Shown: piece by piece, positions 1 to 9,527 of the stretch
Layout of the letters: every line of letters starts with the position of its first letter
Numbering within the stretch: position 1 is the stretch's first letter
Source of the DNA: Escherichia phage HMD-P3
Sequence record: PQ462667.1
DNA length: 64,000 nucleotides
Strand: one strand, 5' to 3'
The notes under the pieces: model-generated
Seen by the model: only the letters and a program-made list of their open reading frames with translations
What the model was told of the DNA's origin: nothing
Database searches by the model: none
Translations under genes and position numbers: made by a program

Positions 1-1
1 C

Positions 2-223
2 GTCGTTTTTGATAGCTTTTACAGCTTTCGCCGCTTTTGGTTTTGCTGGTTTATTTGCTTCTAACCAATCACAAATCGCGGTCGAGTGTTTCGTTGTATC
101 GTAGACCGCTTTTGATATATCGTCGCAGACTTCCAGCTTAGTAGCGCGCAGACGTTTACCGTAGAAATTAAAATCAGCGGCCAGCTTCAGGATAACGGTT
201 TGTTTTTCTGCGGAAAAAATCAT
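2..223 (-). CDS. hypothetical protein, partial (ORF runs off the window start)
   Basis: Minus-strand ORF with ATG at 221-223 and no stop down to position 2; upstream GGAG-type leader (ccctttaatggagtttta) shared with the next three genes. Confidence 0.4.
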   Translation of the reverse strand, partial: MIFSAEKQTVILKLAADFNFYGKRLRATKLEVCDDISKAVYDTTKHSTAICDWLEANKPAKPKAAKAVKAIKND

Positions 224-319
224 GATAATAAAACTCCATTAAAGGGATTAAAAAACGTTTGTTATTGGCAATATTGCCAAATATAACGCCTCGAATAATA
301 GGCGTTATAATTTGCAACA

Positions 320-532
320 TTAATTTAAAGGCATCAGGCTAGAACTAACACCACAAACAACGGCGGCAATAAAACAAATCAGACCTAAACGCTTTGCCAG
401 CCTAGATTTACGTTTAAAATAATACGAATCTAAATCATTTTGAAAATATGCGAACAATAGCGAGGCCGCCATAATAAATAAGCCTAGAATCAATGATTCA
501 GTAGGATAAAAGATCATTTTTAAAAACTCCAA
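320..532 (-). CDS. small membrane protein (two hydrophobic segments)
   Basis: 70-aa ORF with hydrophobic stretches; same conserved GGAG leader upstream. Confidence 0.5.
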   Translation of the reverse strand: MEFLKMIFYPTESLILGLFIMAASLLFAYFQNDLDSYYFKRKSRLAKRLGLICFIAAVVCGVSSSLMPLN

Positions 533-575
533 TTAAAGGGAAATTATAGTGGGGAATAATCCCCACTAGTTAAAT

Positions 576-983
576 TTATTCACCTGCGGCCTGTTTTACC
601 TCATCGGCAACGCCTAACAACTGCGCCACGGCGTCCAGCGTTTCCAGCTTCGCGCTTTCAAGGCTTGCCAGATCATCGGCGTCCTTGATAATGCCGGAAT
701 CGATAGCGTGCTTTGCAATTACTCGTACATAGTGAGCTTTACGGATTGAGCTGCCGCCGCCTACTTTGCGTGGCTTGTCGCTTTTTTGATATGCTTTCGC
801 GCTGGTCAATTTCGAACGAACTGACACGGGAGAAGTCGCGCCAACTGCTTTCGCGATCTCTTTCAGGCCGTCGCTATTTGCGAATTCTAAACCGTTTTCG
901 TTGATTAACTGCTGATACATGGTAACAGCCTGCTGAGTGTTTTCTTCGTTCCAGGAAAATTTTGCGGTTTTTGCGTTGGTCAT
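576..983 (-). CDS. hypothetical protein
   Basis: 135-aa ORF; conserved leader ttaattggagtttatacc directly upstream of the ATG. Confidence 0.55.
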   Translation of the reverse strand: MTNAKTAKFSWNEENTQQAVTMYQQLINENGLEFANSDGLKEIAKAVGATSPVSVRSKLTSAKAYQKSDKPRKVGGGSSIRKAHYVRVIAKHAIDSGIIKDADDLASLESAKLETLDAVAQLLGVADEVKQAAGE

Positions 984-1084
984 GGTATAAACTCCAATTA
1001 ATTTAATTTAAGGGATTAAATGATTAACATAATGTTAATCGTTATATGCCCCGAACTACTGGGGCATATAAAGTTAACACTAAT

Positions 1085-1336
1085 TTATAATACAGCTTCC
1101 CATTTTTCGTTGCGTTGAACAACCTTTACAACGTCGCCAGACTTTACGCGAACGTTATAAATCGGCTTGCCGTTGTTACTGCGCTCATTTTCAGCGTATA
1201 CCGCGTCAATTGTATCGAACGGCATGAGCGCCGCGCCTTTAATACGTTCGGCTTTTCCGGTTAATTCGTCCGTTTTAGTAACGAAAGGAATAAAAACGGA
1301 TTGACCAATTTTAGGCGCGGTAATAACGTTTTTCAT
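1085..1336 (-). CDS. hypothetical protein
   Basis: 83-aa ORF; same leader motif upstream. Confidence 0.5.
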   Translation of the reverse strand: MKNVITAPKIGQSVFIPFVTKTDELTGKAERIKGAALMPFDTIDAVYAENERSNNGKPIYNVRVKSGDVVKVVQRNEKWEAVL

Positions 1337-1370
1337 GGTATAAACTCCAAGTTATTTGTGGATTGTTCCG

Positions 1371-1400
1371 CATTATCTGCTAGAAAATACTAGCAGATAA
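1371..1400. promoter_or_regulatory. perfect 12-bp inverted repeat with 6-nt spacer (operator-like palindrome)
   Basis: attatctgctag-aaaata-ctagcagataat, about 35 nt upstream of the 1085..1336 start; no T-run, so not a typical terminator. Confidence 0.4.
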
Positions 1401-2159
1401 TAAGAAAAAATCCGCTCGCCATTATAAAATCAATTTAAGGAACTCCACGCGGGCCGCTATATCCCAGTTAGGGGGCGGGGCACATTATGGTAAGTACCGA
1501 CCGTCAAATTGTATCAAGTTATCGCTCTTATCGAACTGGGCACATCTTAAAGCCTATCGGCTAGATTGTCAAATAGTTTTTTCGTTTTCTTTTAAGTTAG
1601 GATTTTCCCAACTGAATAACATTTCGCAAAATATTTTCCCATCTTTATGATGGTACGCTATTTCGCTTCCGTGGTTCGCGCAAAAACTGATCACCGCTTC
1701 AGCTTGTTCTACCGTGATATTGTTAGCCGTTTCTTTGATTTTCATATCGTCGATTCCTTATAATGAATAAGTTTACCGCCGATAGGCTTTAAGATATACC
1801 CAATTTTTTTAAAGAGCGCAGCGGTAAACTTCCCGCCGTGTAGTTCGTCATTGCCGCCCTACGAGATAAATAATAACAAACAACGAAAAAGGCGCAACCT
1901 TATATTTGTAAAGAAATGTAAAGACAAACACCACCGGACACCGTGCGGCGACCTGGGCGCGGCGCGTTAAAATTAAAAGAAACGGGCGCGCGAATACCAC
2001 AAAATAGGGCAGATAAGCAAGTAATTTTTTCATTTATATTTGCTTTGCCCTACTTGACAAAATCTAAAAAGCTCGTGGCAGCGATAAACGGCCTATCCCT
2101 TTATGATTGGATGGCCAAAAACTTTATTGCGTTCTAGGGCGTTTTAGGCGCATTCTAGC

Positions 2160-2640
2160 CTTGTTGATAACTTATCCCCAAAAGCAAAAATGAAATTTTC
2201 CTATTTATCCACTTGACTTTTATTTTCCAGTGGATAACTACTTATTTTATAAAATTAATTAATTGACTTTTATTTGTTAGTATGCATCGGAAAGATAGCA
2301 GACTAATAATTGCTGGGATGATAATCATGCTGGTGGATTGTAACGGCTTAAACTATTAGCAGACTATTAATCACGGAAAATCTCATTAGCCAACTAACTA
2401 TTTCATGATATATAATATACTTATAAATTAATGAGAAATAATAACTATAAGAAATCATCACCAATATAATAACTATAAGAAATCATCACCATTATAATAA
2501 TAACGATAAGAAACTATCGGCCTAAGTGAGAACCACTATCATTTAAGTTATCCACAACGTTATCCACAGCACAAAATAATTTGACACGATAGGCGGCGAT
2601 ATGAGGGCTTTTACACAGACTTATCCACAGGTTATCCTAC
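2160..2640. promoter_or_regulatory. cluster of DnaA-box-like 9-mers
   Basis: Three perfect TTATCCACA at about 2548, 2560 and 2621 plus 1-mismatch variants near 2163, 2173, 2205 and 2231; region is ORF-free. Confidence 0.55.
2438..2517. repeat. iteron-like tandem direct repeat (28-bp period, about 2.8 copies)
   Basis: ataataactataagaaatcatcacca at about 2438 and 2466, degenerate third copy about 2494-2517. Confidence 0.6.
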
Positions 2641-2922
2641 TGTATAAATATACAGGGTAAAAAGGCAGTGTTAACGACTGCAATCAATTTTAAGCGGCCT
2701 AAAACGCTTTCTAACGAGCTAAACGATGCGGGGTAATATTAAAGTAAAGCCGCGACACGGCGCCCTGGTGGCTTCGCCGTGTTTTGCTCGTTATTACACC
2801 GCTGCGCGGTTATCATAAAATTAGGCGTTAGGCAAGGAAAATAAAAAGGTAAATTAATCTTTGCCTATGCTAGAAAATTACCGTTATCATTCACTCACCA
2901 ATTAACGAGGGAGGCCGAACAA

Positions 2923-3900
2923 ATGAGGCTTTATAAACCTGATAATGCCACCGTTTTAAAAGGTGCGCTGCGTAACCTGCTGGATGGTAGCAGAACAACC
3001 AGCATTAAGCACTTTGTTAACAAGGCCGAAGATATTCACCAAAATTTTTTTGATGATTTCGACGCCTATGATATGAGTAGTTTTTTGCAACTATATAAGC
3101 AAGGGGCAACGCTTGTTTTATATAATCGGGATAATCACCTGCTCACTAGTCGGGGGCCGGATACTGATTTCATAATCGTAAAAGGCAACACAGTAAAAGC
3201 CTATGATACTGGGGCGGGCTTAGAAGTTTTCACAATAGTAAACTATGAGGCTAATGATAATGATCTTTATGACGTAGAAAATTTTCTTGATTCATTTTGG
3301 CGTTATTTATCAGTTGGCTGGAATCGGTCAATTGGTGACGGGTATCGTCTGGCGGCTGTAATGGCCTTTGATGATGATGGCAATTTTTTGCTACCGTCGG
3401 AAATATACCCCTACATATATGATGGAGATATAGAAAGCGCGGGCTTTTCTTTCTGGAAGGAGAAAGATCAGCCCATTGACAACACGGAAAAACATGCTGT
3501 AAATTCTAGCACTCAAACTACTGAAAACAAAGGAAAAAATGCCATGACCAAGATCTCTAATATCGTTGCCGCCAATAAGTCTGCCGTTGTAAACGCTGCA
3601 AAACTGGAAGCGGGTAAAATTGCACTAACTCAAATCACGAAAGTAGCGGCTAAAAAAGCACCGTTCATGATCAAAGGTTATATCGATACGCCGATTGGTC
3701 GTGTAGTGATCGCTAACCTGCTGAGTGTAGCGGTTGACCAGTACGCCCCGAGTAACCAGAAAGCGAAAGCGGTAGCGGGGGCGGCTATGGAAGCGGCAAT
3801 GTTAGAAATGGTGCAAAGTTTTAACATCGCTGAGATGATCGATGAAATGGTAAAAGGTATCGATATTTCTACTTTTACCGTTAACACCGAAAACGAGTAA
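2923..3900 (+). CDS. hypothetical protein (325 aa)
   Basis: Long ORF with strong SD (gagggagg) 7 nt upstream; followed by a hairpin and T-run. Confidence 0.7.
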   Translation: MRLYKPDNATVLKGALRNLLDGSRTTSIKHFVNKAEDIHQNFFDDFDAYDMSSFLQLYKQGATLVLYNRDNHLLTSRGPDTDFIIVKGNTVKAYDTGAGLEVFTIVNYEANDNDLYDVENFLDSFWRYLSVGWNRSIGDGYRLAAVMAFDDDGNFLLPSEIYPYIYDGDIESAGFSFWKEKDQPIDNTEKHAVNSSTQTTENKGKNAMTKISNIVAANKSAVVNAAKLEAGKIALTQITKVAAKKAPFMIKGYIDTPIGRVVIANLLSVAVDQYAPSNQKAKAVAGAAMEAAMLEMVQSFNIAEMIDEMVKGIDISTFTVNTENE

Positions 3901-3928
3901 TAACTAGCCTATTGTAAAGTTTTGTAAA

Positions 3929-3954
3929 GGTCGCCTTTTATGGTGGCCTTTTTT
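3929..3954 (+). terminator. rho-independent terminator candidate
   Basis: ggtcgcc-ttttat-ggtggcc stem (with G-U pairs) followed by tttttt; a TATAAT hexamer follows at about 3957. Confidence 0.5.
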
Positions 3955-4018
3955 GCTATAATGCCTTTACACCGTTTGAGGACGGTTGAAAATTTTCCCA
4001 AAAATTTGGAGGCTTAAA

Positions 4019-4249
4019 ATGGTTGCTTTTTCTTCTTCTGACGCTCTTTTCACTGGTAAAGGCTGGGTATCAAATCGCTGGATTATTCAAGAAATGGTGC
4101 AAGAATACGGCATCGCTAAAACTTATAATACCATTCAGGCGCTTTATGATAATGATCAAATCGATCAGCAAACGGCGGGCTTTTTACTGGATACCCTGAA
4201 GGCGGAACACTGTACCAAAAAACAAGCCGCTAAAATTGTTTTAATGTAA
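4019..4249 (+). CDS. hypothetical protein (start moved to the ATG behind GGAGG)
   Basis: In-frame ATG at 4019 preceded by ggaggcttaaa; the track start at 3986 is a TTG without an RBS. Confidence 0.55.
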   Translation: MVAFSSSDALFTGKGWVSNRWIIQEMVQEYGIAKTYNTIQALYDNDQIDQQTAGFLLDTLKAEHCTKKQAAKIVLM

Positions 4250-4297
4250 TTAATAACGGGGCGTTACTTTCGCCCCACTAACTAGGGAGTATTACAA

Positions 4298-4480
4298 ATG
4301 ATTATTTTTCGGGCTATTCTGGCGGGTATCTTGGGCGCTATTTTGACCCTTTTCGCCACCGCTTATGGTATTCAAGATTCTTATTGTGGTTTGGTAAACA
4401 CAAAACCTATGGTTATTATTGGCGCGGGCGTCGCTGTATTTTCTTATCTGCTGGGCTGCATGACTAGTAAAGGAGAATAA
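4298..4480 (+). CDS. small membrane protein
   Basis: 60 aa, two hydrophobic segments; RBS ctagggag. Confidence 0.55.
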   Translation: MIIFRAILAGILGAILTLFATAYGIQDSYCGLVNTKPMVIIGAGVAVFSYLLGCMTSKGE

Positions 4481-4482
4481 AA

Positions 4483-4695
4483 ATGATCCGCAACGTTTCT
4501 CTTGCACGTTCGAAAGGCTTTAAGCTGGTGGACGCTAACACGTTCGAGCGTCCAGATTGTAAAATCGAATATGTAGCACGTAATAAAAATGCCTTTCGTG
4601 TTACCGAGAAAAAATTTGATAAGCGCGGCAACGTGATCATTGAAACGGTTAGGCACTTTGCCACCTTTTACGCTGCGTTTCGTGGGGTACTATGA
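4483..4695 (+). CDS. hypothetical protein
   Basis: RBS aaaggagaa; tightly packed with neighbours. Confidence 0.55.
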   Translation: MIRNVSLARSKGFKLVDANTFERPDCKIEYVARNKNAFRVTEKKFDKRGNVIIETVRHFATFYAAFRGVL

Positions 4696-4823
4696 AAAGC
4701 GTTATTGTTGTTCTCCTTGCAATGGCTGGCGGTTTTATCGCCACCTTATTTAAGAATGATCCCATTTCGTTGGGTATCTTTATGCTTTTATCTGGATACC
4801 TGATCGGGAGGATATGCAAATGA
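4692..4823 (+). CDS. small membrane protein (43 aa, below the ORF-track cutoff)
   Basis: ATGA overlap with the upstream stop; hydrophobic product MKSVIVVLLAMAGGFIATLF; hand translation. Confidence 0.4.
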   Translation: MKSVIVVLLAMAGGFIATLFKNDPISLGIFMLLSGYLIGRICK

Positions 4824-5164
4824 TCATTTACGAGGGCAATCGTTTTGTTGCTAATTGCCGCCCGGCATTGTTAGCAAACTATTTGAACCAGCTTTCGCCA
4901 GCTTATAAGGGCGTTATTAATATTTACGAGGGAAAGGCGCATTATAAAATCAATGCGGTCGTTGCCCGTGAACTAGCGTTTCAATTTTTAACCTTTGCAT
5001 CTTGCGACGTTCAGGTTATGGGTGAGGCATTAATTGCAGAAAATGAGGATGATTTTATTAATATTTTTCGCAAGGTATGCACCGAGCGCCTGATAATGAA
5101 AGGCGCATATATTCAATCCACGGCTGATAGTATTGAAACAGCGTTTCGAAAGGTGGCGCAATGA
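4814..5164 (+). CDS. hypothetical protein
   Basis: 116-aa ORF; gggagg RBS. Confidence 0.55.
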   Translation: MQMIIYEGNRFVANCRPALLANYLNQLSPAYKGVINIYEGKAHYKINAVVARELAFQFLTFASCDVQVMGEALIAENEDDFINIFRKVCTERLIMKGAYIQSTADSIETAFRKVAQ

Positions 5165-5376
5165 ATGAAATTACTTGGAATATGTTGCTGAAGGTTAAAC
5201 GGGTAAAATTAACACAGGATTTATGGGGAGTAGGTAAAACAGGGGATGTATTCACTGTGTTTAAAGACGCTCATCATAGGTTTATAAGAAGGAATAACAA
5301 TACCGGTACAGCGTTTTATTTAATTGATTTAATCAAATTACACGGTGAGGATATTTTCAAACTAGAATATGAGTAA
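5161..5376 (+). CDS. hypothetical protein
   Basis: ATGA start/stop overlap with the upstream gene. Confidence 0.5.
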   Translation: MNEITWNMLLKVKRVKLTQDLWGVGKTGDVFTVFKDAHHRFIRRNNNTGTAFYLIDLIKLHGEDIFKLEYE

Positions 5377-5431
5377 CTATATAATTTTGGCGTATTGCAA
5401 TGAGATAGCCAACTAATAACGGGGCGTTATT

Positions 5432-5626
5432 ATGAGCAATAAAATTATTGTAACCAAAACCAGTACAATGGTTGATATTTTTTACGTGCCCGATACGCCG
5501 GAAAACCGACAAGCGGTTGAGCGTGGGGAATATGATAAAGTGATTTATGATCACGATGGTTATTATCAGTATTTAGTGGATTCCTACGGGGAGGAGGAAA
5601 AAATCACGCATCGACTACCAGACTAA
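5432..5626 (+). CDS. hypothetical protein
   Basis: 64-aa ORF preceded by the taataacggggcg element also seen at about 4250. Confidence 0.5.
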   Translation: MSNKIIVTKTSTMVDIFYVPDTPENRQAVERGEYDKVIYDHDGYYQYLVDSYGEEEKITHRLPD

Positions 5627-5665
5627 TAATCATGGGGCGCAACTATCTGGGAGTGCCCCCAATTT

Positions 5666-5690
5666 TCAAATGAGAATGATTCTCATTTGA
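5666..5690. repeat. perfect 25-bp palindrome tcaaatgagaatgattctcatttga
   Basis: Read directly; founding copy of the AAATGAGAAT repeat family. Confidence 0.8.
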
Positions 5691-5889
5691 CCGCGCCCGC
5701 TATGGTTAGCCTGCTAATGGTTAGGGTGTTACGTGTCGCCTTGTGTGATCGTTAGCGTGCTAACTAATTTTCAAGCCTCCTCCAATTTTGCCCTTGTTTT
5801 AGTATCCCCACCAAAATTAAACGCGTTAGAATGCGATCTAGGACGTTTTAGCGGTATATTAGAACTATTCACTGCGTAGGAATACTGTA

Positions 5890-5995
5890 TATTTATCCAG
5901 TAGGATAAGCTGTGGATAAGTCTGTTGATAACGCTTCAAAATGGCTAGAATTTTGTCAAGTCAAATCGTGCTGTTGATAAGTCTGGGGATAACTT
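5890..5995. promoter_or_regulatory. second DnaA-box cluster
   Basis: tgtggataa (perfect, reverse orientation) at about 5921, plus ttatccag, tgttgataa (twice) and ggggataac. Confidence 0.5.
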
Positions 5996-6017
5996 AAATA
6001 ACAGTGTTTCTCACTTC

Positions 6018-6180
6018 CGTTCTTAAATGCGAATCATTATCATTCGCATTCCACTTTTTAAATGAGAATCATTCCACTTTCTAAATGAGATTGATTCTCG
6101 TTTCACTTTCTAAATGCGAATTATTATCATTCTCATTCCGCTTTTTAAATGAGAATGATTCTTATTATCATTCGTATTTA
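6018..6180. repeat. about 6 direct or partly palindromic copies of the ctttttaaatgagaatcatt family
   Basis: Copies at about 6023, 6051, 6073, 6098, 6125 and 6143; ORF-free. Confidence 0.7.
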
Positions 6181-6206
6181 GCGCAGGGCAATTGCCCTGC
6201 GCTTTT
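6181..6206. terminator. GC-rich perfect hairpin (gcgcagggc-aatt-gccctgcgc) followed by TTTT
   Basis: 22-bp palindrome then a T-run; could terminate transcripts from either direction. Confidence 0.55.
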
Positions 6207-6943
6207 GTGCAAATCCGACATTGCTCCACGGGTGTTACGTGCGGGCATGTATGTGCAAATCCGACAATTTTTGGCAGTGTGCAAATCTGACCCGAAAAAT
6301 TTTTATAGTGTGCAAATCCGACAATGAATTTTCCTAAAAACTCCAGCAATCCGATGCTGCGCATCAATCCTGTGGAATTAACTAGAATATGTGCAAATCC
6401 GACATGGGTTTATTTGTGCGAATCCGACAAGATTTTTATGACTTCGATGAGAGGGTGTGTGATTGTGTGAGTTTAGGGAGAAGATGAGAGAGTGAGAGAA
6501 AATTAGGGGAACTACGGAAGGGGCGCATGTTTGGTGCAGGGCACCAGATTTGCGGGGATTTTGGGGAAGAGTTGAGAAGATTTGAGTTAATTTGAGATTA
6601 GTGGAGATAAAGTAAAATTTTATTAGCAAAATGGGGCAAAATAACTTGACAAGTGAAAATTTCTGTGGCTCTAAAAACTCAGGCAATCATGGGCCTTCGG
6701 CCCGAAATAATGCTGCTATTTTCAGGAGATTATGTGTTCCTAAAAACTTAGGTAATTGTGCAAATCCGACCATAAATTTCTAGAAACACAATGTGCAAAT
6801 CCGACAGTAATTTCTGGAAATGTGTTTTCAAAAAATGTCTCCTAGAAATAACCGCCCTCCCCATAACCGCCCTGTATAGGAAAACCGGCCTAGGATATTT
6901 ATAGTAGATGAAAAACTGCCCTAGAACATGTGCAAATCCGATT
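6206..6943 (+). repeat. nine same-orientation copies of the 15-mer TGTGCAAATCCGACA
   Basis: Copies at about 6206, 6252, 6278, 6309, 6390, 6415, 6757, 6792 and 6929 (four with one or two substitutions); irregular spacing. Confidence 0.8.
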
Positions 6944-7351
6944 TAAAGTTCAGTGTAAACCCTAGAGTTAGTGTTCAACTATTCCTAGAAACTTAGGAGT
7001 CTAGAAGAAAGTGTTGTGCCATCCTAGCAGATGAGCGGCAACAGGTGTATCATCTTAAACACAGATATTGCCTTTAAATATTTTTTAGTTATTTAAAAGT
7101 AAATATACCCCCATTTCATGAGAGTTAGCCCCTCTAGGCGCGTGCGATTTGATACATCCTCCTAAGTCTCGGTGTGGAAGAACAATTGACGAGAACCTGC
7201 GAGCAGAACCGTCATCAAGTGTTTTCCTACGAGGAATGATGTAAATCTACGGCCTAGAGGTAAAAACAAGTTGATGTTTTTAATCTATGAGATTATTATA
7301 ACACATTATTCTCACGAATGTCAAGCAGATTTCGTTATTTTTAAATTTTCG

Positions 7352-8189
7352 TCATGAGTTTGGAGTTGGGTAAACTTTTATACAACCTTGACTTAATAGA
7401 TACTCTTCTGCCTCTACAGCTTTAATGTTGAATATCTCTTTTGCTCCATCGAATTTATAATGGTTAGCAAATTTATTTTCGAAAAATTTATGTGCTTGAT
7501 GTTCTATTCTGTAAGCGAGTTCTTTCGATCCTTTTAATGATACGGCGACCACCGAGATCTACACCTGAGGAAACACTCTTTCCCTACACGACGCTCTTCC
7601 GATCTTGATGTTCTATTCTGTAAGCGAGTTCTTTCGATCCTTTCTTATATTGGTAGATACCAAATACTTCCATATCTTCGAAACCCGGCACACGCAATTT
7701 ATCATACTCTAGATTCTTAAACCTTTGATGTGGCTCTCTAGAGACTCCAATCTTTGTCTTTAATTTTTTCCTAGACTGATCTTTATTAGAGAAGATATAG
7801 AGATATGTGGGAAATTGAACATCTTCATCTACTTCTGGCTTCTCGACAGGTGTATTAAGGTTGCTTTCTCTAGCACACTGTAAACAGCCGTGCCCATCTA
7901 GGTGGGATCTAGCAGTTTGCATAAAGTATCCTTTATGCTTATAGCACCATATCTCTACTAACTGATTGGCTGTCTTATAATTAACTTTTTCATACCCATA
8001 TTCTTCTTTCTGGACTTTTAAAGCTTTCCTAATAAAGATAAGGTTTAAGGCCTCTTGTTGGAAGTCAGGGTGAAGTTGCCTAATCTTCGTTATATTAGTA
8101 GAGCCATTTGACTTCAAAAAGTTTTTAAGAGGAAACCTCCGGGCTTCCTCTCGTAGCTTTTTATTAATTTCAGTACGTAAATCATCCAT
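7352..8189 (-). CDS. HNH-like (Cys/His-rich) homing-endonuclease-family protein, reading frame broken by the adapter artefact
   Basis: Track ORFs 7352..7552 and 7584..8189 share the duplicated peptide KGSKELAYRIEHQ; paralog of 10216..10659; motif CYKHKGYF...TARSHLDGHGCLQC. Confidence 0.6.
7536..7605 (+). other. Illumina P5/TruSeq adapter with 8-nt index CTGAGGAA (sequencing artefact)
   Basis: Exact AATGATACGGCGACCACCGAGATCTACAC-CTGAGGAA-ACACTCTTTCCCTACACGACGCTCTTCCGATCT; flanked by a direct duplication of about 40 bp (7494-7535 and 7606-7645). Confidence 0.95.
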
Positions 8190-8907
8190 CTTTATTAACC
8201 TTCAGAATAACCCCTTTTGACGCCATGAAAAGGAATGTTGCTAGGTAAGATGACTCGGAATTTAGCGCAGAATAATCTACACTTCCCCTAGGTCTAGTTT
8301 CTTGTTTAGTGTCAAGAATTGTTGATATATCAAACTTAACAGACTTAGCAACTTTTCTAGCTTGTTCAGGATCACGTAAAACTTCAAAGTGAGCAGCATC
8401 TAGAATAGGGTTAGATGTTGTTGAGTCATCAACTATACTTAGATGAACCTGCGCAAGTGTAGATACGATTCCTAGCTTTAATTCAGATAGAGAAGAATAA
8501 GGTGGTTCTACTTTCTTTGTAAGCCTAGGGAGATGATCGTATTTACATTGCTTTTGAGGAATCATCAAAATGTTAGGATAACATTCTAGACATGACTTTG
8601 CATTTCCTTCTTTAAAATACGGTAGTTCTTTATCTGCAAAGACGTGGAATGAGTCTGCTGAAAATCCTTTAATAGTAGGATCAACAGTTTGAATCAGACG
8701 ACGTAAACTAATATAAGAAGGTGCTAGAGTAACTTCTCCTGCATCTTTATTATATTTAGGTTGTCCACTAGCATTAATATATGCAGGATAAAACTCTGCA
8801 CAAAATGCTACTGCATGTGCCTCTAACTCATTAAGCTGAGAAACACATTTCCCATTACAAGCTCTAGCTAACTTAATAATCTCTGCTAAATTCTTTTTAA
8901 TACTCAT
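8182..8907 (-). CDS. hypothetical protein (241 aa)
   Basis: Long AT-rich ORF, start/stop overlap with neighbours. Confidence 0.6.
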   Translation of the reverse strand: MSIKKNLAEIIKLARACNGKCVSQLNELEAHAVAFCAEFYPAYINASGQPKYNKDAGEVTLAPSYISLRRLIQTVDPTIKGFSADSFHVFADKELPYFKEGNAKSCLECYPNILMIPQKQCKYDHLPRLTKKVEPPYSSLSELKLGIVSTLAQVHLSIVDDSTTSNPILDAAHFEVLRDPEQARKVAKSVKFDISTILDTKQETRPRGSVDYSALNSESSYLATFLFMASKGVILKVNKDG

Positions 8908-9527
8908 TAACTACCTCTCTTGTCCTCATTAATAGCAGCTCCCAACGCCTCCATAATAGCATCCTCTAAACTTCCATGTTTACTAGGATTATTAAAATGA
9001 ATAGTACAAACAGAACTCCTAGAAACTCCAGCATCCGCAGGTGCTACGCTTCGCATATCAGATTCAAAAGCTTCTTGAGTATGTTTTAACTGCACAGAAG
9101 GGCCGTAATCTTCCGCAAATTTATATGACTGCGTACTACTTACCACACCCCCACAAGGAACATTGTGCATATCTGACATTAATCTTTTATCGGAGTTATT
9201 CAGCATTGAGATTGTCCCTGACTGCCACGGATCTCTAATAGTCACTGGAGTACTAGGGCGGTTCACCTCAGTCTTCACAAGTTTGTACCCTGCATCGATT
9301 AATGCGTTAATTAGATTATCAGCCGGGATGCGAGCCTTGCCAAAAATCTCACGAGCGTTGTTGAGCCTGCCTTCAAAACCTTTACATGCTCTAATATTAG
9401 TGTGTGCAAAGGTTAGCTTCATAGATTTGAATTGTACAGTAGCAGTTAAATCTTTAAAGCTATAATCCCATGTATTCAGTTCATGGTCTGGTACTACTTG
9501 AATAGGTTGTTGTACATTAAAAGTCAT
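8907..9527 (-). CDS. hypothetical protein (206 aa)
   Basis: Long ORF, translationally coupled to neighbours. Confidence 0.6.
   Translation of the reverse strand: MTFNVQQPIQVVPDHELNTWDYSFKDLTATVQFKSMKLTFAHTNIRACKGFEGRLNNAREIFGKARIPADNLINALIDAGYKLVKTEVNRPSTPVTIRDPWQSGTISMLNNSDKRLMSDMHNVPCGGVVSSTQSYKFAEDYGPSVQLKHTQEAFESDMRSVAPADAGVSRSSVCTIHFNNPSKHGSLEDAIMEALGAAINEDKRGS

What the first reader, a model, noticed from the sequence alone, without database searches (positions are those of the whole stretch)
2160..2640. DnaA-box cluster with 28-bp iteron-like repeats in an ORF-free stretch
Three perfect E. coli DnaA boxes (TTATCCACA at about 2548, 2560, 2621) in one orientation plus at least four 1-mismatch boxes, next to 2.8 tandem copies of a 28-bp AT-rich unit (2438-2517). 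A second cluster lies at about 5890-5995. DnaA boxes plus iterons are the architecture of a DnaA-dependent origin or a DnaA-titrating element. In a lytic phage this would imply host DnaA recruitment during DNA entry or replication. T5-type first-step-transfer DNA is reported to contain DnaA boxes, but the function is unresolved.
Basis: partly seen in the sequence, partly recalled or inferred. Interest (0 to 1): 0.6.

Follow-up and report, generated by a model that had tools for sequence, protein, structure and literature searches.

The report
Known T5-type DnaA-box module, not an origin
The DnaA-box cluster is real, but it is the already described, conserved non-coding element of T5-like phages that mirrors their DNA injection-stop region; it is not a replication origin, and it also carries an apparently unreported LexA (SOS) operator.

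Summary
TTATCCACA occurs at 2548, 2560 and 2621. A consensus-conform TTTTACACA at 2609 was missed. Four one-mismatch boxes lie at 2162-2237, a 28-bp tandem repeat at 2438-2524, and a second cluster at 5911-5992. There are 8 boxes in 481 bp against 0.2 expected.

The window is a T5-like phage, starting about 2.85 kb into its left terminal repeat (first-step-transfer DNA). The cluster is one arm (2496-2670) of a 175-bp inverted repeat. The other arm (5870-6044) lies in the injection-stop region. This is Davison's IRC-spacer-IRD / IRD'-spacer-IRC' module, with DnaA boxes reported since 1987 and compared across 25 phages in 2020. Its function is still untested.

The origin/iteron reading fails:
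- The 28-bp copy number ranges from 0 to 3 among relatives.
- There is no Rep gene, no DUE 13-mer, no GATC and no IHF core.
- A published viable T5 deletion removes the homologous arm, by my mapping of its primers.

Each arm also ends in a near-consensus LexA operator (2638-2657, 5883-5902). It is conserved as far as Vibrio T5-like phages, and I found no mention of it in the literature I could search.

Most likely the element is a landing pad for host proteins (DnaA, probably LexA) that acts with the injection-stop region.

The parts
2034..2922 (.). ORF-free divergent intergenic region of the first-step-transfer DNA. It lies between the leftward A2-side genes and the rightward DUF7566 gene. 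It corresponds to T5 Repeat Regions 1 and 2, undivided here because T5's HNH insertion is absent.
   Evidence: ORF lists; SPC35 and T5 annotation; Pfam and PHROG hits of the flanking genes; Davison's description.
2162..2237 (.). Left mini-cluster of four one-mismatch DnaA-like 9-mers: 2162(-), 2172(+), 2205(+), 2229(-). TTATCCACT at 2205 and TGTTRATAA are kept in Kenya-K16, DaisyDussoix, EH5, chee130_1, Sugarland and Pantoea AAS21. SPC35 and JLBYU40 carry a different allele without these boxes, and T5 shows the same allele where the deletion primer maps.
2387..2416 (+). Promoter-like site TAGCCA-N18-TATAAT (10 of 12 matches) in a block conserved as far as Pantoea phage AAS21. It begins with the third of three TAGCAGACTAWTAAT-like direct repeats (2296-2310, 2357-2371, 2387-2401). 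Function not shown.
2438..2524 (+). 28-bp AT-rich tandem repeat, three copies. The third copy belongs to the inverted-repeat arm. Copy number is 3, 2, 1 or 0 in relatives, so this is a lineage-specific expansion and not a conserved iteron array.
   Evidence: No significant similarity to the iss-side repeats.
2496..2670 (+). Arm 1 of the long-range inverted repeat (IRC-spacer-IRD). It matches the reverse complement of 5870-6044 at 124 of 175 positions.
2548..2568 (+). DnaA box pair a and b: TTATCCACA acg TTATCCACA, with a 3-bp gap.
2609..2629 (+). DnaA box pair c and d: TTTTACACA gac TTATCCACA. 52 nt separate the end of box a from the start of box c, and likewise box b from box d.
2632..2640 (+). 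Fifth, degenerate box TTATCCTAC, overlapping the LexA-like operator by 3 nt. It is the best conserved 9-mer of the module (mean majority frequency 0.97).
2638..2657 (.). LexA-operator-like palindrome TACTGTATAAATATACAGGG, a perfect CTGT-N8-ACAG with 17 of 20 matches to the consensus. Probably one of the palindromes Davison lists next to the module.
2849..2916 (+). Homologue of T5's annotated putative promoter upstream of the 37-kDa pre-early gene (TTGCCT-N18-TATCAT at 2861-2890). It sits about 200 bp downstream of arm 1.
5870..6044 (-). Arm 2 (IRD'-spacer-IRC') in the injection-stop region. Boxes on the minus strand lie at 5984 (TTATCCCCA), 5972 (TTATCAACA), 5923 (TTATCAACA) and 5911 (TTATCCACA), with a fifth box at 5900-5908.
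5883..5902 (.). LexA-operator-like palindrome of arm 2, TACTGTATATTTATCCAGTA (18 of 20). It sits on the inner edge of the arm, facing the one in arm 1.
6020..6166 (+). Tandem 23-35-bp palindrome-containing repeats of the injection-stop region (TTTYTAAATGAGAATSATTC family), on the outer side of arm 2.
6206..6942 (+). Nine copies of TGTGCAAATCCGAC (T5 'DRD'-type repeats), all in one orientation. The reverse complement contains ATTTGCACA, one mismatch from the DnaA consensus.

Best explanation
This is the middle copy of the conserved 'DnaA-box module' of T5-like phages (Davison's IRC-spacer-IRD). [quoted passage not shown] It is an inverted duplicate of the module in the injection-stop region, 3.3 kb to the right.

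Each copy contains:
- four head-to-tail DnaA boxes, arranged as two pairs with a 3-bp gap and 52 bp between corresponding boxes;
- a fifth, degenerate box;
- a LexA-operator-like palindrome on the inner edge.

Most likely, host DnaA (and probably LexA) loads onto the module as soon as the FST DNA is in the cytoplasm, before any phage protein exists. The module would then act together with the injection-stop copy to hold, loop or pause the entering DNA. It is an accessory, dispensable partner.

It is not a replication origin, and the 28-bp repeats are not iterons.

Shown: the anatomy, the conservation, the consensus-like pattern of variation and the missing origin features.

Inferred: protein binding and the role in DNA entry.

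Rough breakdown of confidence: identity of the element about 0.95, DnaA binding about 0.75, a role in DNA handling at the FST stage about 0.4.
For: Identity. The window aligns with T5-like genomes from SPC35 position 2848, inside the annotated left terminal repeat/FST. Arms 2496-2670 and 5870-6044 are inverted repeats, 124 of 175 positions identical. The layout matches Davison's description: pairs 3 bp apart, a 52-bp spacing, eight boxes.

Conservation. The 0/12/61/73 box register, without indels, is present in both arms of Tequintavirus, Epseptimavirus, Sugarlandvirus, Pantoea AAS21, Pectobacterium DU_PP_V and Serratia Slocum. Vibrio phage Cilsick (A1 34% identical) has inverted DnaA-box arms plus the LexA-like site.

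Box variation. In 59 unique arms anchored independently of boxes a-d, positions 1, 2, 4, 8 and 9 are nearly invariant. Position 3 is A or T and position 5 is free, as in TT(A/T)TNCACA. Outer boxes fit the consensus in 47 and 40 of 59 arms. Boxes are more conserved (mean majority frequency 0.91) than the spacer (0.72) or the flanks (0.64-0.75).

Host rather than phage ligand. The sites stay at the host consensus while phage A2 drops to 65% and 52% identity.

LexA. Two matches with 3 or fewer mismatches to the 20-mer consensus in 64 kb, against 0.01 expected; both lie on the inner edges of the arms. The iss arm shows 1 mismatch in 24 of 27 unique arms. The identical 17-mer sits 19-20 nt upstream of DinI-family and Peptidase_S24 (UmuD-like) genes in unrelated viral contigs.

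Location. Arm 2 lies inside the region T5 records annotate as the injection stop signal.
Against: No binding or genetic test of the boxes exists. Papers from 2023 and 2026 still say the functional studies are lacking.

The T5 ΔLΔR mutant is viable, though with small plaques. Its deletion primers map to AY692264 positions about 5394-9160, which removes the homologous middle arm. Davison also reports 'Type 4' T5-like phages without this arm. So this copy cannot be essential.

The inner boxes of the iss arm are systematically TTAT(C/T)AACA, which breaks the CACA core. Either they are weak cooperative sites or they serve another ligand.

Whether cytoplasmic DnaA could arrest DNA translocation is unknown.

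T5 plates on recA strains (my recollection, not checked here), so LexA cleavage cannot be required.
Confidence: 0.6

Rival explanations
1. Transcriptional control element. DnaA- and LexA-bound sites act as operators or roadblocks for the divergent pre-early promoters, or they insulate the rightward pre-early operon that the two arms bracket.
For: The element lies in the divergent promoter region. A conserved promoter-like site (2387-2416) sits upstream and the homologue of T5's annotated promoter (2849-2916) sits downstream. LexA operators normally repress promoters, and the same 17-mer precedes dinI- and umuD-like genes elsewhere. The two arms flank the rightward operon, which includes homologues of genes reported as toxic in T5.
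Against: No arm-internal promoter is conserved. TTTACA-17-TATCCT works only where box c is TTTTACACA, and TTAACA-16-TATATT is lost in T5 and JLBYU40. The invariant TTGACA in the spacer has no -10 hexamer at 16-18 nt (read). The characterised promoter lies about 200 bp from the operator. In Sugarland the operon between the arms is inverted, yet the arms are unchanged.
Confidence: 0.2
2. The sites are recognised by a phage protein rather than host DnaA or LexA. The candidate is the DNA-binding dimer A2, alone or with A1, for example as the place where A1/A2 release or cut the DNA to restart transfer.
For: A2 is a DNA-binding protein essential for second-step transfer. The inner boxes TTAT(C/T)AACA and the fifth box TTATCCTAC are conserved although they are off the DnaA consensus. 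A symmetric palindrome suits a dimer.
Against: The sequences match the host consensus almost perfectly: TTATCCACA, and 19 of 20 to the LexA 20-mer. They stay there while A2 diverges to 52-65% identity. An unrelated operator matching 15 of 16 positions of the LexA core by chance is very unlikely. The stop happens without phage protein synthesis, so at least the stop ligand must come from the host or the virion.
Confidence: 0.1
3. DnaA sink. This would be a datA-like titration element that removes DnaA from the host origin to block host initiation.
For: It is a cluster of high-affinity boxes outside an origin. There are two arms per terminal repeat and two repeats per genome.
Against: Only about 8-10 boxes enter with the FST DNA, against roughly a thousand DnaA molecules per cell (general knowledge). 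Host DNA is degraded within minutes anyway. There is no IHF core, which datA needs. The fixed register and the inverted duplication would be unnecessary for a sink.
Confidence: 0.05
4. DnaA-dependent replication origin with iterons.
For: DnaA boxes lie next to an AT-rich tandem repeat in non-coding DNA.
Against: Repeat copy number ranges from 0 to 3 among relatives. There is no Rep or initiator gene. There is no 13-mer DUE, no GATC in 1690-3261 and no IHF core. The homologous T5 arm is deleted in a viable mutant. T5 origins map near the genome centre and replication genes are not in the FST DNA.
Confidence: 0.03
5. A purely structural inverted repeat: a recombination substrate that lets the segment between the arms invert or be swapped, with the boxes incidental.
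For: In Klebsiella phage Sugarland the DUF7566 gene lies on the opposite strand next to arm 2. The segment between the arms is therefore inverted relative to T5 and this window. Gene content between the arms is highly variable.
Against: Recombination needs homology, not a particular sequence. Yet the boxes and the palindrome are far better conserved than the spacer, and the two arms keep arm-specific spacers. Exact host consensus motifs would not be maintained.
Confidence: 0.05

Closest known systems
T5 IRC-spacer-IRD (Repeat Region 2) and IRD'-spacer-IRC' (Repeat Region 3, injection stop signal). Per Davison 2020 (bioRxiv 10.1101/866236), DnaA boxes were reported in this region in 1987 and the repeats were catalogued with the complete T5 genome sequence.
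   Same: Same genomic position, the same inverted-repeat partner, the same box pairs with a 3-bp gap and 52-bp spacing, and eight boxes in all. Directly homologous by BLAST and alignment.
   Different: Regions 1 and 2 are contiguous here because there is no HNH insertion. All four boxes of the middle arm fit the consensus, whereas T5 has lost one. The 28-bp unit is triplicated. In the iss arm the perfect box sits at the opposite end from its position in T5.
E. coli oriC DnaA-box arrays
   Same: Head-to-tail arrays of 9-mers. Strong sites sit at the outer ends and weaker sites inside, suggesting cooperative filling (oriC organisation from general knowledge).
   Different: No DUE 13-mers, no GATC, no IHF core, no evidence of replication, and dispensable in T5.
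datA and DARS, the non-origin DnaA-box clusters of E. coli
   Same: Clusters of high-affinity DnaA boxes outside an origin that act through DnaA binding rather than DNA unwinding.
   Different: No IHF core. All boxes in an arm point the same way. The element is duplicated in inverted orientation and coupled to a LexA-like operator.
SOS operators of dinI-like and umuD-like genes in prophages
   Same: The identical 17-mer ACTGTATATTTATACAG lies 19-20 nt upstream of DinI-family and Peptidase_S24 genes in unrelated viral contigs.
   Different: In the T5-like arms no gene follows directly. The operator overlaps a DnaA-like box and occurs as an inverted pair 3.3 kb apart in a strictly lytic phage.
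Iteron plasmid origins with DnaA boxes (P1 oriR, F oriS, pSC101)
   Same: DnaA boxes lie beside direct repeats of about 20-30 bp.
   Different: No Rep gene. The repeat number is not conserved (0-3). The repeats lie outside the conserved core.

Membership tests
T5-like FST DnaA-box module (IRC-spacer-IRD / IRD'-spacer-IRC') | Lies in the terminal repeat/FST DNA of a T5-like genome, between the A2-side leftward genes and the rightward pre-early genes | tested here: met
   Window position 1 corresponds to SPC35 position 2848, inside the annotated left TR. A2 (phrog_1725) lies to the left; DUF7566 and the T5.015 homologue lie to the right.
T5-like FST DnaA-box module (IRC-spacer-IRD / IRD'-spacer-IRC') | Inverted-repeat partner in the untranslated injection-stop region | tested here: met
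   2496-2670 against 5870-6044, 124 of 175 positions. The T5 record annotates the homologous right arm within 'injection stop signal'.
T5-like FST DnaA-box module (IRC-spacer-IRD / IRD'-spacer-IRC') | DnaA or DnaA* boxes in pairs separated by 3 bp, 52-bp spacing between pairs, eight boxes in the FST | tested here: met
   Boxes at 2548/2560 and 2609/2621, and at 5984/5972 and 5923/5911. The 52-nt spacing was computed and matches the description.
T5-like FST DnaA-box module (IRC-spacer-IRD / IRD'-spacer-IRC') | Binding of host DnaA | not testable with these tools
   Only sequence evidence is available. The positional variation follows TT(A/T)TNCACA.
DnaA-dependent replication origin (oriC type) | Cluster of DnaA boxes | tested here: met
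DnaA-dependent replication origin (oriC type) | Adjacent AT-rich unwinding element with 13-mer repeats, GATC clustering and an IHF site | tested here: not met
   No GATCTnTTnTTTT in positions 1-8000. No GATC in 1690-3261. No WATCAANNNNTTR in either arm.
DnaA-dependent replication origin (oriC type) | Required for, or sufficient for, replication | tested here: not met
   Indirect. The deletion primers of the viable T5 ΔLΔR mutant map to AY692264 about 5394-9160, which includes the homologous arm at 6121-6202. Sufficiency (autonomous replication) cannot be tested here.
Iteron-type plasmid or phage origin | Conserved array of iterons with a cognate initiator (Rep) gene nearby | tested here: not met
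   The 28-bp unit is present in 3, 2, 1 or 0 copies in relatives. Flanking ORFs give no Rep family.
datA-like DnaA titration locus | High-affinity boxes plus an essential IHF site | tested here: not met
   Boxes are present, but there is no IHF core consensus in 2100-2720 or 5860-6200.
LexA operator (gammaproteobacterial SOS box) | CTGT-N8-ACAG palindrome close to TACTGTATATATATACAGTA | tested here: met
   2638-2657 scores 17 of 20 with a perfect CTGT-N8-ACAG. 5883-5902 scores 18 of 20. That is 2 hits against 0.01 expected. The iss arm of most relatives scores 19 of 20.
LexA operator (gammaproteobacterial SOS box) | The same sequence used as operator of recognised SOS genes | tested here: met
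   The identical 17-mer lies 19-20 nt upstream of DinI (PF06183, 1.9e-17) and Peptidase_S24 (PF00717, 7.8e-8) genes in unrelated viral contigs.
LexA operator (gammaproteobacterial SOS box) | Overlaps a promoter and represses it; LexA binding | tested here: inconclusive
   A minus-strand TTAACA-16-TATATT site has its -10 hexamer inside the box in this window, but it is not conserved in T5 or JLBYU40. Binding cannot be tested here.

The most novel reading that the evidence does not exclude
The injection-stop module of T5-like phages may be a composite site for two host proteins, with a strong LexA operator fused to the DnaA-box array in both arms. The operator is conserved from T5 to Vibrio T5-like phages. 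I found no mention of it in the accessible literature (0 occurrences of LexA or SOS in Davison 2020; no hits in four searches). If LexA and DnaA together form the nucleoprotein block or anchor that pauses genome entry, and A1/A2 then undo it, this would name the long-sought host factors of two-step DNA transfer. It would also be a first case of a strictly lytic phage using LexA at the DNA-entry stage.
Probability: 0.25. Interest if true: 0.75.

Novelty: already known. Interest (0 to 1): 0.35.

Why it matters
What stops T5 DNA after 8% has entered has been unresolved since the 1960s. The DnaA-box module is the only concrete host-factor hypothesis, and nobody has tested it.

This analysis does four things:
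- It sharpens the target to a fixed-register, 110-bp core conserved across subfamilies.
- It shows that the middle copy is dispensable, so experiments should mutate the injection-stop arm, ideally in a background that lacks arm 1.
- It removes the origin/iteron reading.
- It adds LexA as a second candidate ligand that can be tested with standard lexA and dnaA host alleles, footprinting and ChIP.

It also bears on engineering T5-like phages, because it indicates which non-coding DNA can be removed.

Tried and rejected
1. Origin/iteron reading: rejected. The grounds are the repeat copy number, the absence of a Rep gene, a DUE, GATC and IHF sites, and the viable T5 deletion.

2. Homology between the 28-bp unit and the tandem repeats on the iss side: not significant (local alignment score 18 against a shuffle mean of 17.8).

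3. Known RNA families in positions 1-8000: nothing near the gathering scores.

4. A promoter inside the arms: the scan hits are weak and not conserved, and the invariant spacer TTGACA has no -10 partner. This is left open.

5. The box statistics from the first IMG/VR scan were biased, because that pattern required perfect boxes. I repeated them with an anchor independent of boxes a-d.

6. Of the 81 loci matching TTATCCACA-N52-TTATCCACA, 52 are not T5-like. L013, L039, L058 and L092 share the 0/12/61/73 register but have no T5 protein homologues. I did not pursue them.

7. Literature. Davison's 2015 review could not be opened. No paper linking LexA to T5-like phages turned up, and none on dnaA as a T5 host factor.

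8. GC skew. The cumulative minimum lies near 48-50 kb of the window, not at the box clusters. Gene orientation confounds this, so I did not use it as evidence.

Full report
**1.

TTATCCACA occurs six times in the 64-kb window against 0.71 expected. Three copies lie at 2548, 2560 and 2621 on the plus strand and one at 5911 on the minus strand.

With up to one mismatch there are 37 sites against 19.5 expected. Eleven of them fall in 2162-2629 and 5911-5992.

It fits the TT(A/T)TNCACA consensus and completes a second pair.

Against first-order Markov simulations of the same AT-rich stretch, 2160-2640 holds 8 boxes against 0.22 expected (maximum 2 in 1000 simulations). The stretch 5880-6000 holds 4 against 0.09.

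The 28-bp tandem repeat is real: TRF reports 2437-2513, and the repeat finder reports three copies at 2438-2524. The stretch 2138-2922 has no ORF of 40 aa or more.

**2. Where we are**

The first 8 kb match hundreds of T5-like genomes (Demerecviridae). [quoted passage not shown]

To the left, on the minus strand, lie A2 (a DNA-binding protein, phrog_1725) and small pre-early genes. To the right, on the plus strand, lie the DUF7566 gene (T5's 37-kDa pre-early protein), a T5.015 homologue and others.

The finding therefore sits in the divergent intergenic region of the pre-early genes.

**3. The two clusters are one structure**

Positions 2496-2670 are the reverse complement of 5870-6044 at 124 of 175 positions.

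Each arm has four 9-mers in one orientation at offsets 0, 12, 61 and 73. That makes two pairs with a 3-bp gap and 52 nt between corresponding boxes. A fifth box, TTATCCTAC, follows, and then a palindrome.

This is the layout Davison described for T5 and 24 relatives as IRC-spacer-IRD (Repeat Region 2) and IRD'-spacer-IRC' (Repeat Region 3). The second of these lies in the region annotated as the injection stop signal in T5 records.

According to that preprint, the DnaA boxes were first reported in 1987. Papers from 2023 and 2026 still state that their function has not been tested. The core of the finding is thus already known.

**4. Conservation**

I fetched eleven GenBank loci chosen by BLAST and two sets of IMG/VR loci.

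The four-box register, without any indel, is present in both arms of Tequintavirus, Epseptimavirus, Sugarlandvirus, Pantoea phage AAS21, Pectobacterium phage DU_PP_V and Serratia phage Slocum.

The first IMG/VR pattern required perfect boxes and so biased the sample. I therefore re-anchored on the fifth box plus the palindrome. That motif occurs only in 96-123-kb T5-like contigs.

In the resulting 59 unique arms:
- Positions 1, 2, 4, 8 and 9 of the 9-mers are nearly invariant.
- Position 3 is A or T and position 5 is free, as the DnaA consensus allows.
- The outer boxes fit the consensus in 47 and 40 of 59 arms.
- The inner boxes of the injection-stop arm are almost always TTAT(C/T)AACA.

Boxes (mean majority frequency 0.91) and the fifth box (0.97) are better conserved than the 40-nt spacer (0.72) or the flanks.

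The sites stay at the host consensus while phage A2 falls to 65% identity in Sugarland and 52% in Pantoea AAS21. This favours a host ligand over a co-evolving phage protein.

**5. Not an origin, and no iterons**

The 28-bp unit is present three times here and in SPC35 and Kenya-K16. It occurs twice in JLBYU40, once in DaisyDussoix, EH5 and chee130_1, and not at all in Sugarland and Pantoea AAS21. It is a lineage-specific expansion at the outer edge of the arm.

Other origin features are also missing:
- No flanking ORF matches an initiator family.
- There is no 13-mer unwinding element in the first 8 kb.
- There is no GATC anywhere in 1690-3261 or 5836-7526.
- There is no IHF core in either arm.

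A 2026 preprint built a viable T5 mutant (ΔLΔR, small plaques) lacking genes hegG to 017. I mapped its deletion primers to AY692264 at about 5393 and at 9161. The deletion therefore removes the homologous middle arm (boxes at 6121-6202) and keeps the injection-stop arm. That the arm is deleted is my inference from the primer positions; the authors do not discuss it.

Davison also reports T5-like phages that lack this arm, and he notes that T5 origins map near the genome centre.

**6. What else is in the module**

The palindrome on the inner edge of each arm is a near-consensus LexA operator. Arm 1 reads TACTGTATAAATATACAGGG at 2638-2657, and arm 2 reads TACTGTATATTTATCCAGTA at 5883-5902.

These are the only two matches with 3 or fewer mismatches to TACTGTATATATATACAGTA in 64 kb, against 0.01 expected.

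In 24 of 27 unique injection-stop arms it differs from the consensus at one position. In T5 it lies at AY692264 9409-9428. It is present in Slocum and DU_PP_V. In Vibrio phage Cilsick, whose A1 protein is only 34% identical to T5's, it again sits beside DnaA boxes arranged as inverted arms.

The identical 17-mer is frequent in unrelated viral contigs, where it lies 19-20 nt upstream of DinI-family and Peptidase_S24 (UmuD-like) genes. So it is a sequence used as a real SOS operator.

Davison's preprint lists palindromes here but never mentions LexA, SOS or promoters. Four literature searches found nothing linking LexA to T5-like phages (and the search within). Older subscription papers could not be read, so I cannot claim priority.

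**7. Mechanism**

Shown: the anatomy, the conservation, the consensus-like variation and the absence of origin features.

Inferred: that host DnaA, and probably LexA, bind the module as soon as the FST DNA enters.

My best reading is that the module at the injection-stop region, helped by this middle copy, forms a host nucleoprotein complex. That complex would hold, loop or pause the entering DNA until A1 and A2 act. This essentially follows Davison's membrane-DnaA proposal, with LexA as a possible second component.

The middle copy is accessory.

The main rival is a transcriptional role, as operators or roadblocks around the rightward pre-early operon. This is plausible from the position, but no conserved promoter overlaps the sites.

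Binding by phage A2, DnaA titration and a purely recombinational role are less likely, for the reasons given under the rival explanations.

**8. Verdict**

The feature is already described, so novelty is low. Residual interest comes from the unresolved injection-stop problem, which this element makes directly testable, and from the LexA operator.

Noticed in passing
window 2638-2657 and 5883-5902: Near-consensus LexA (SOS) operators lie on the inner edge of both DnaA-box arms and overlap a fifth box, TTATCCTAC. They are conserved across Demerecviridae as far as Vibrio phage Cilsick. The same 17-mer precedes dinI- and umuD-like genes in unrelated contigs. I found no mention of this in the accessible T5 literature.
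   Followed up: yes
L004 (Klebsiella phage Sugarland) 5848-9980, compared with window 2548-5992: The segment between the two arms is inverted in Sugarland. Its DUF7566 homologue lies on the opposite strand next to arm 2 (7855-8778). This is consistent with recombination between the inverted arms during evolution.
   Followed up: partly
window 6206-6942: Nine same-orientation copies of TGTGCAAATCCGAC. The reverse complement carries ATTTGCACA, one mismatch from the DnaA consensus, in the same orientation as the boxes of the injection-stop arm. In the fetched SPC35, chee130_1, Pantoea AAS21 and Slocum loci, a strict-consensus TTTTGCACA occurs (its membership of this repeat family was not checked).
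   Followed up: partly
window 1690-3261 and 5836-7526: GATC is completely absent from both large non-coding regions, although the window as a whole has the expected density (218 observed, about 226 expected).
   Followed up: no
window 7295-7324 (minus strand): A perfect sigma-70 consensus promoter, TTGACA-18-TATAAT with an upstream TG. It points leftward into the non-coding repeat region from the early-gene side.
   Followed up: no
window 7495-7534 and 7604-7643: A 40-nt direct repeat, 100% identical, with copies 109 nt apart at the start of the early region.
   Followed up: no
window 2296-2310, 2357-2371, 2387-2401: Three direct repeats of TAGCAGACTAWTAAT-like sequence, conserved in Tequintavirus and Epseptimavirus. 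The third starts the conserved promoter-like site TAGCCA-N18-TATAAT (2387-2416).
   Followed up: partly
L013, L039, L058, L092 (IMG/VR contigs of 37-53 kb): Contigs unrelated to T5 carry four perfect TTATCCACA boxes at the same 0/12/61/73 offsets, plus inverted boxes, just upstream of a gene starting MKNIYEILK. They show no homology to T5 FST proteins.
   Followed up: partly
GenBank MG065642.1 (Campylobacter phage A148), OR848616.1 (Listeria phage LM 4-14-1): Records named for Campylobacter and Listeria hosts contain T5-like FST sequence, 71-77% identical to the finding region. These are probably mislabelled or contaminant T5-like phages.
   Followed up: no
window 1534-1561 and 1778-1805: A 28-nt inverted repeat (89% complementary) containing the core of T5 promoter P-D/E20, whose homologue maps to 1518-1573. 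A second, inverted partial copy therefore lies 216 nt away.
   Followed up: partly
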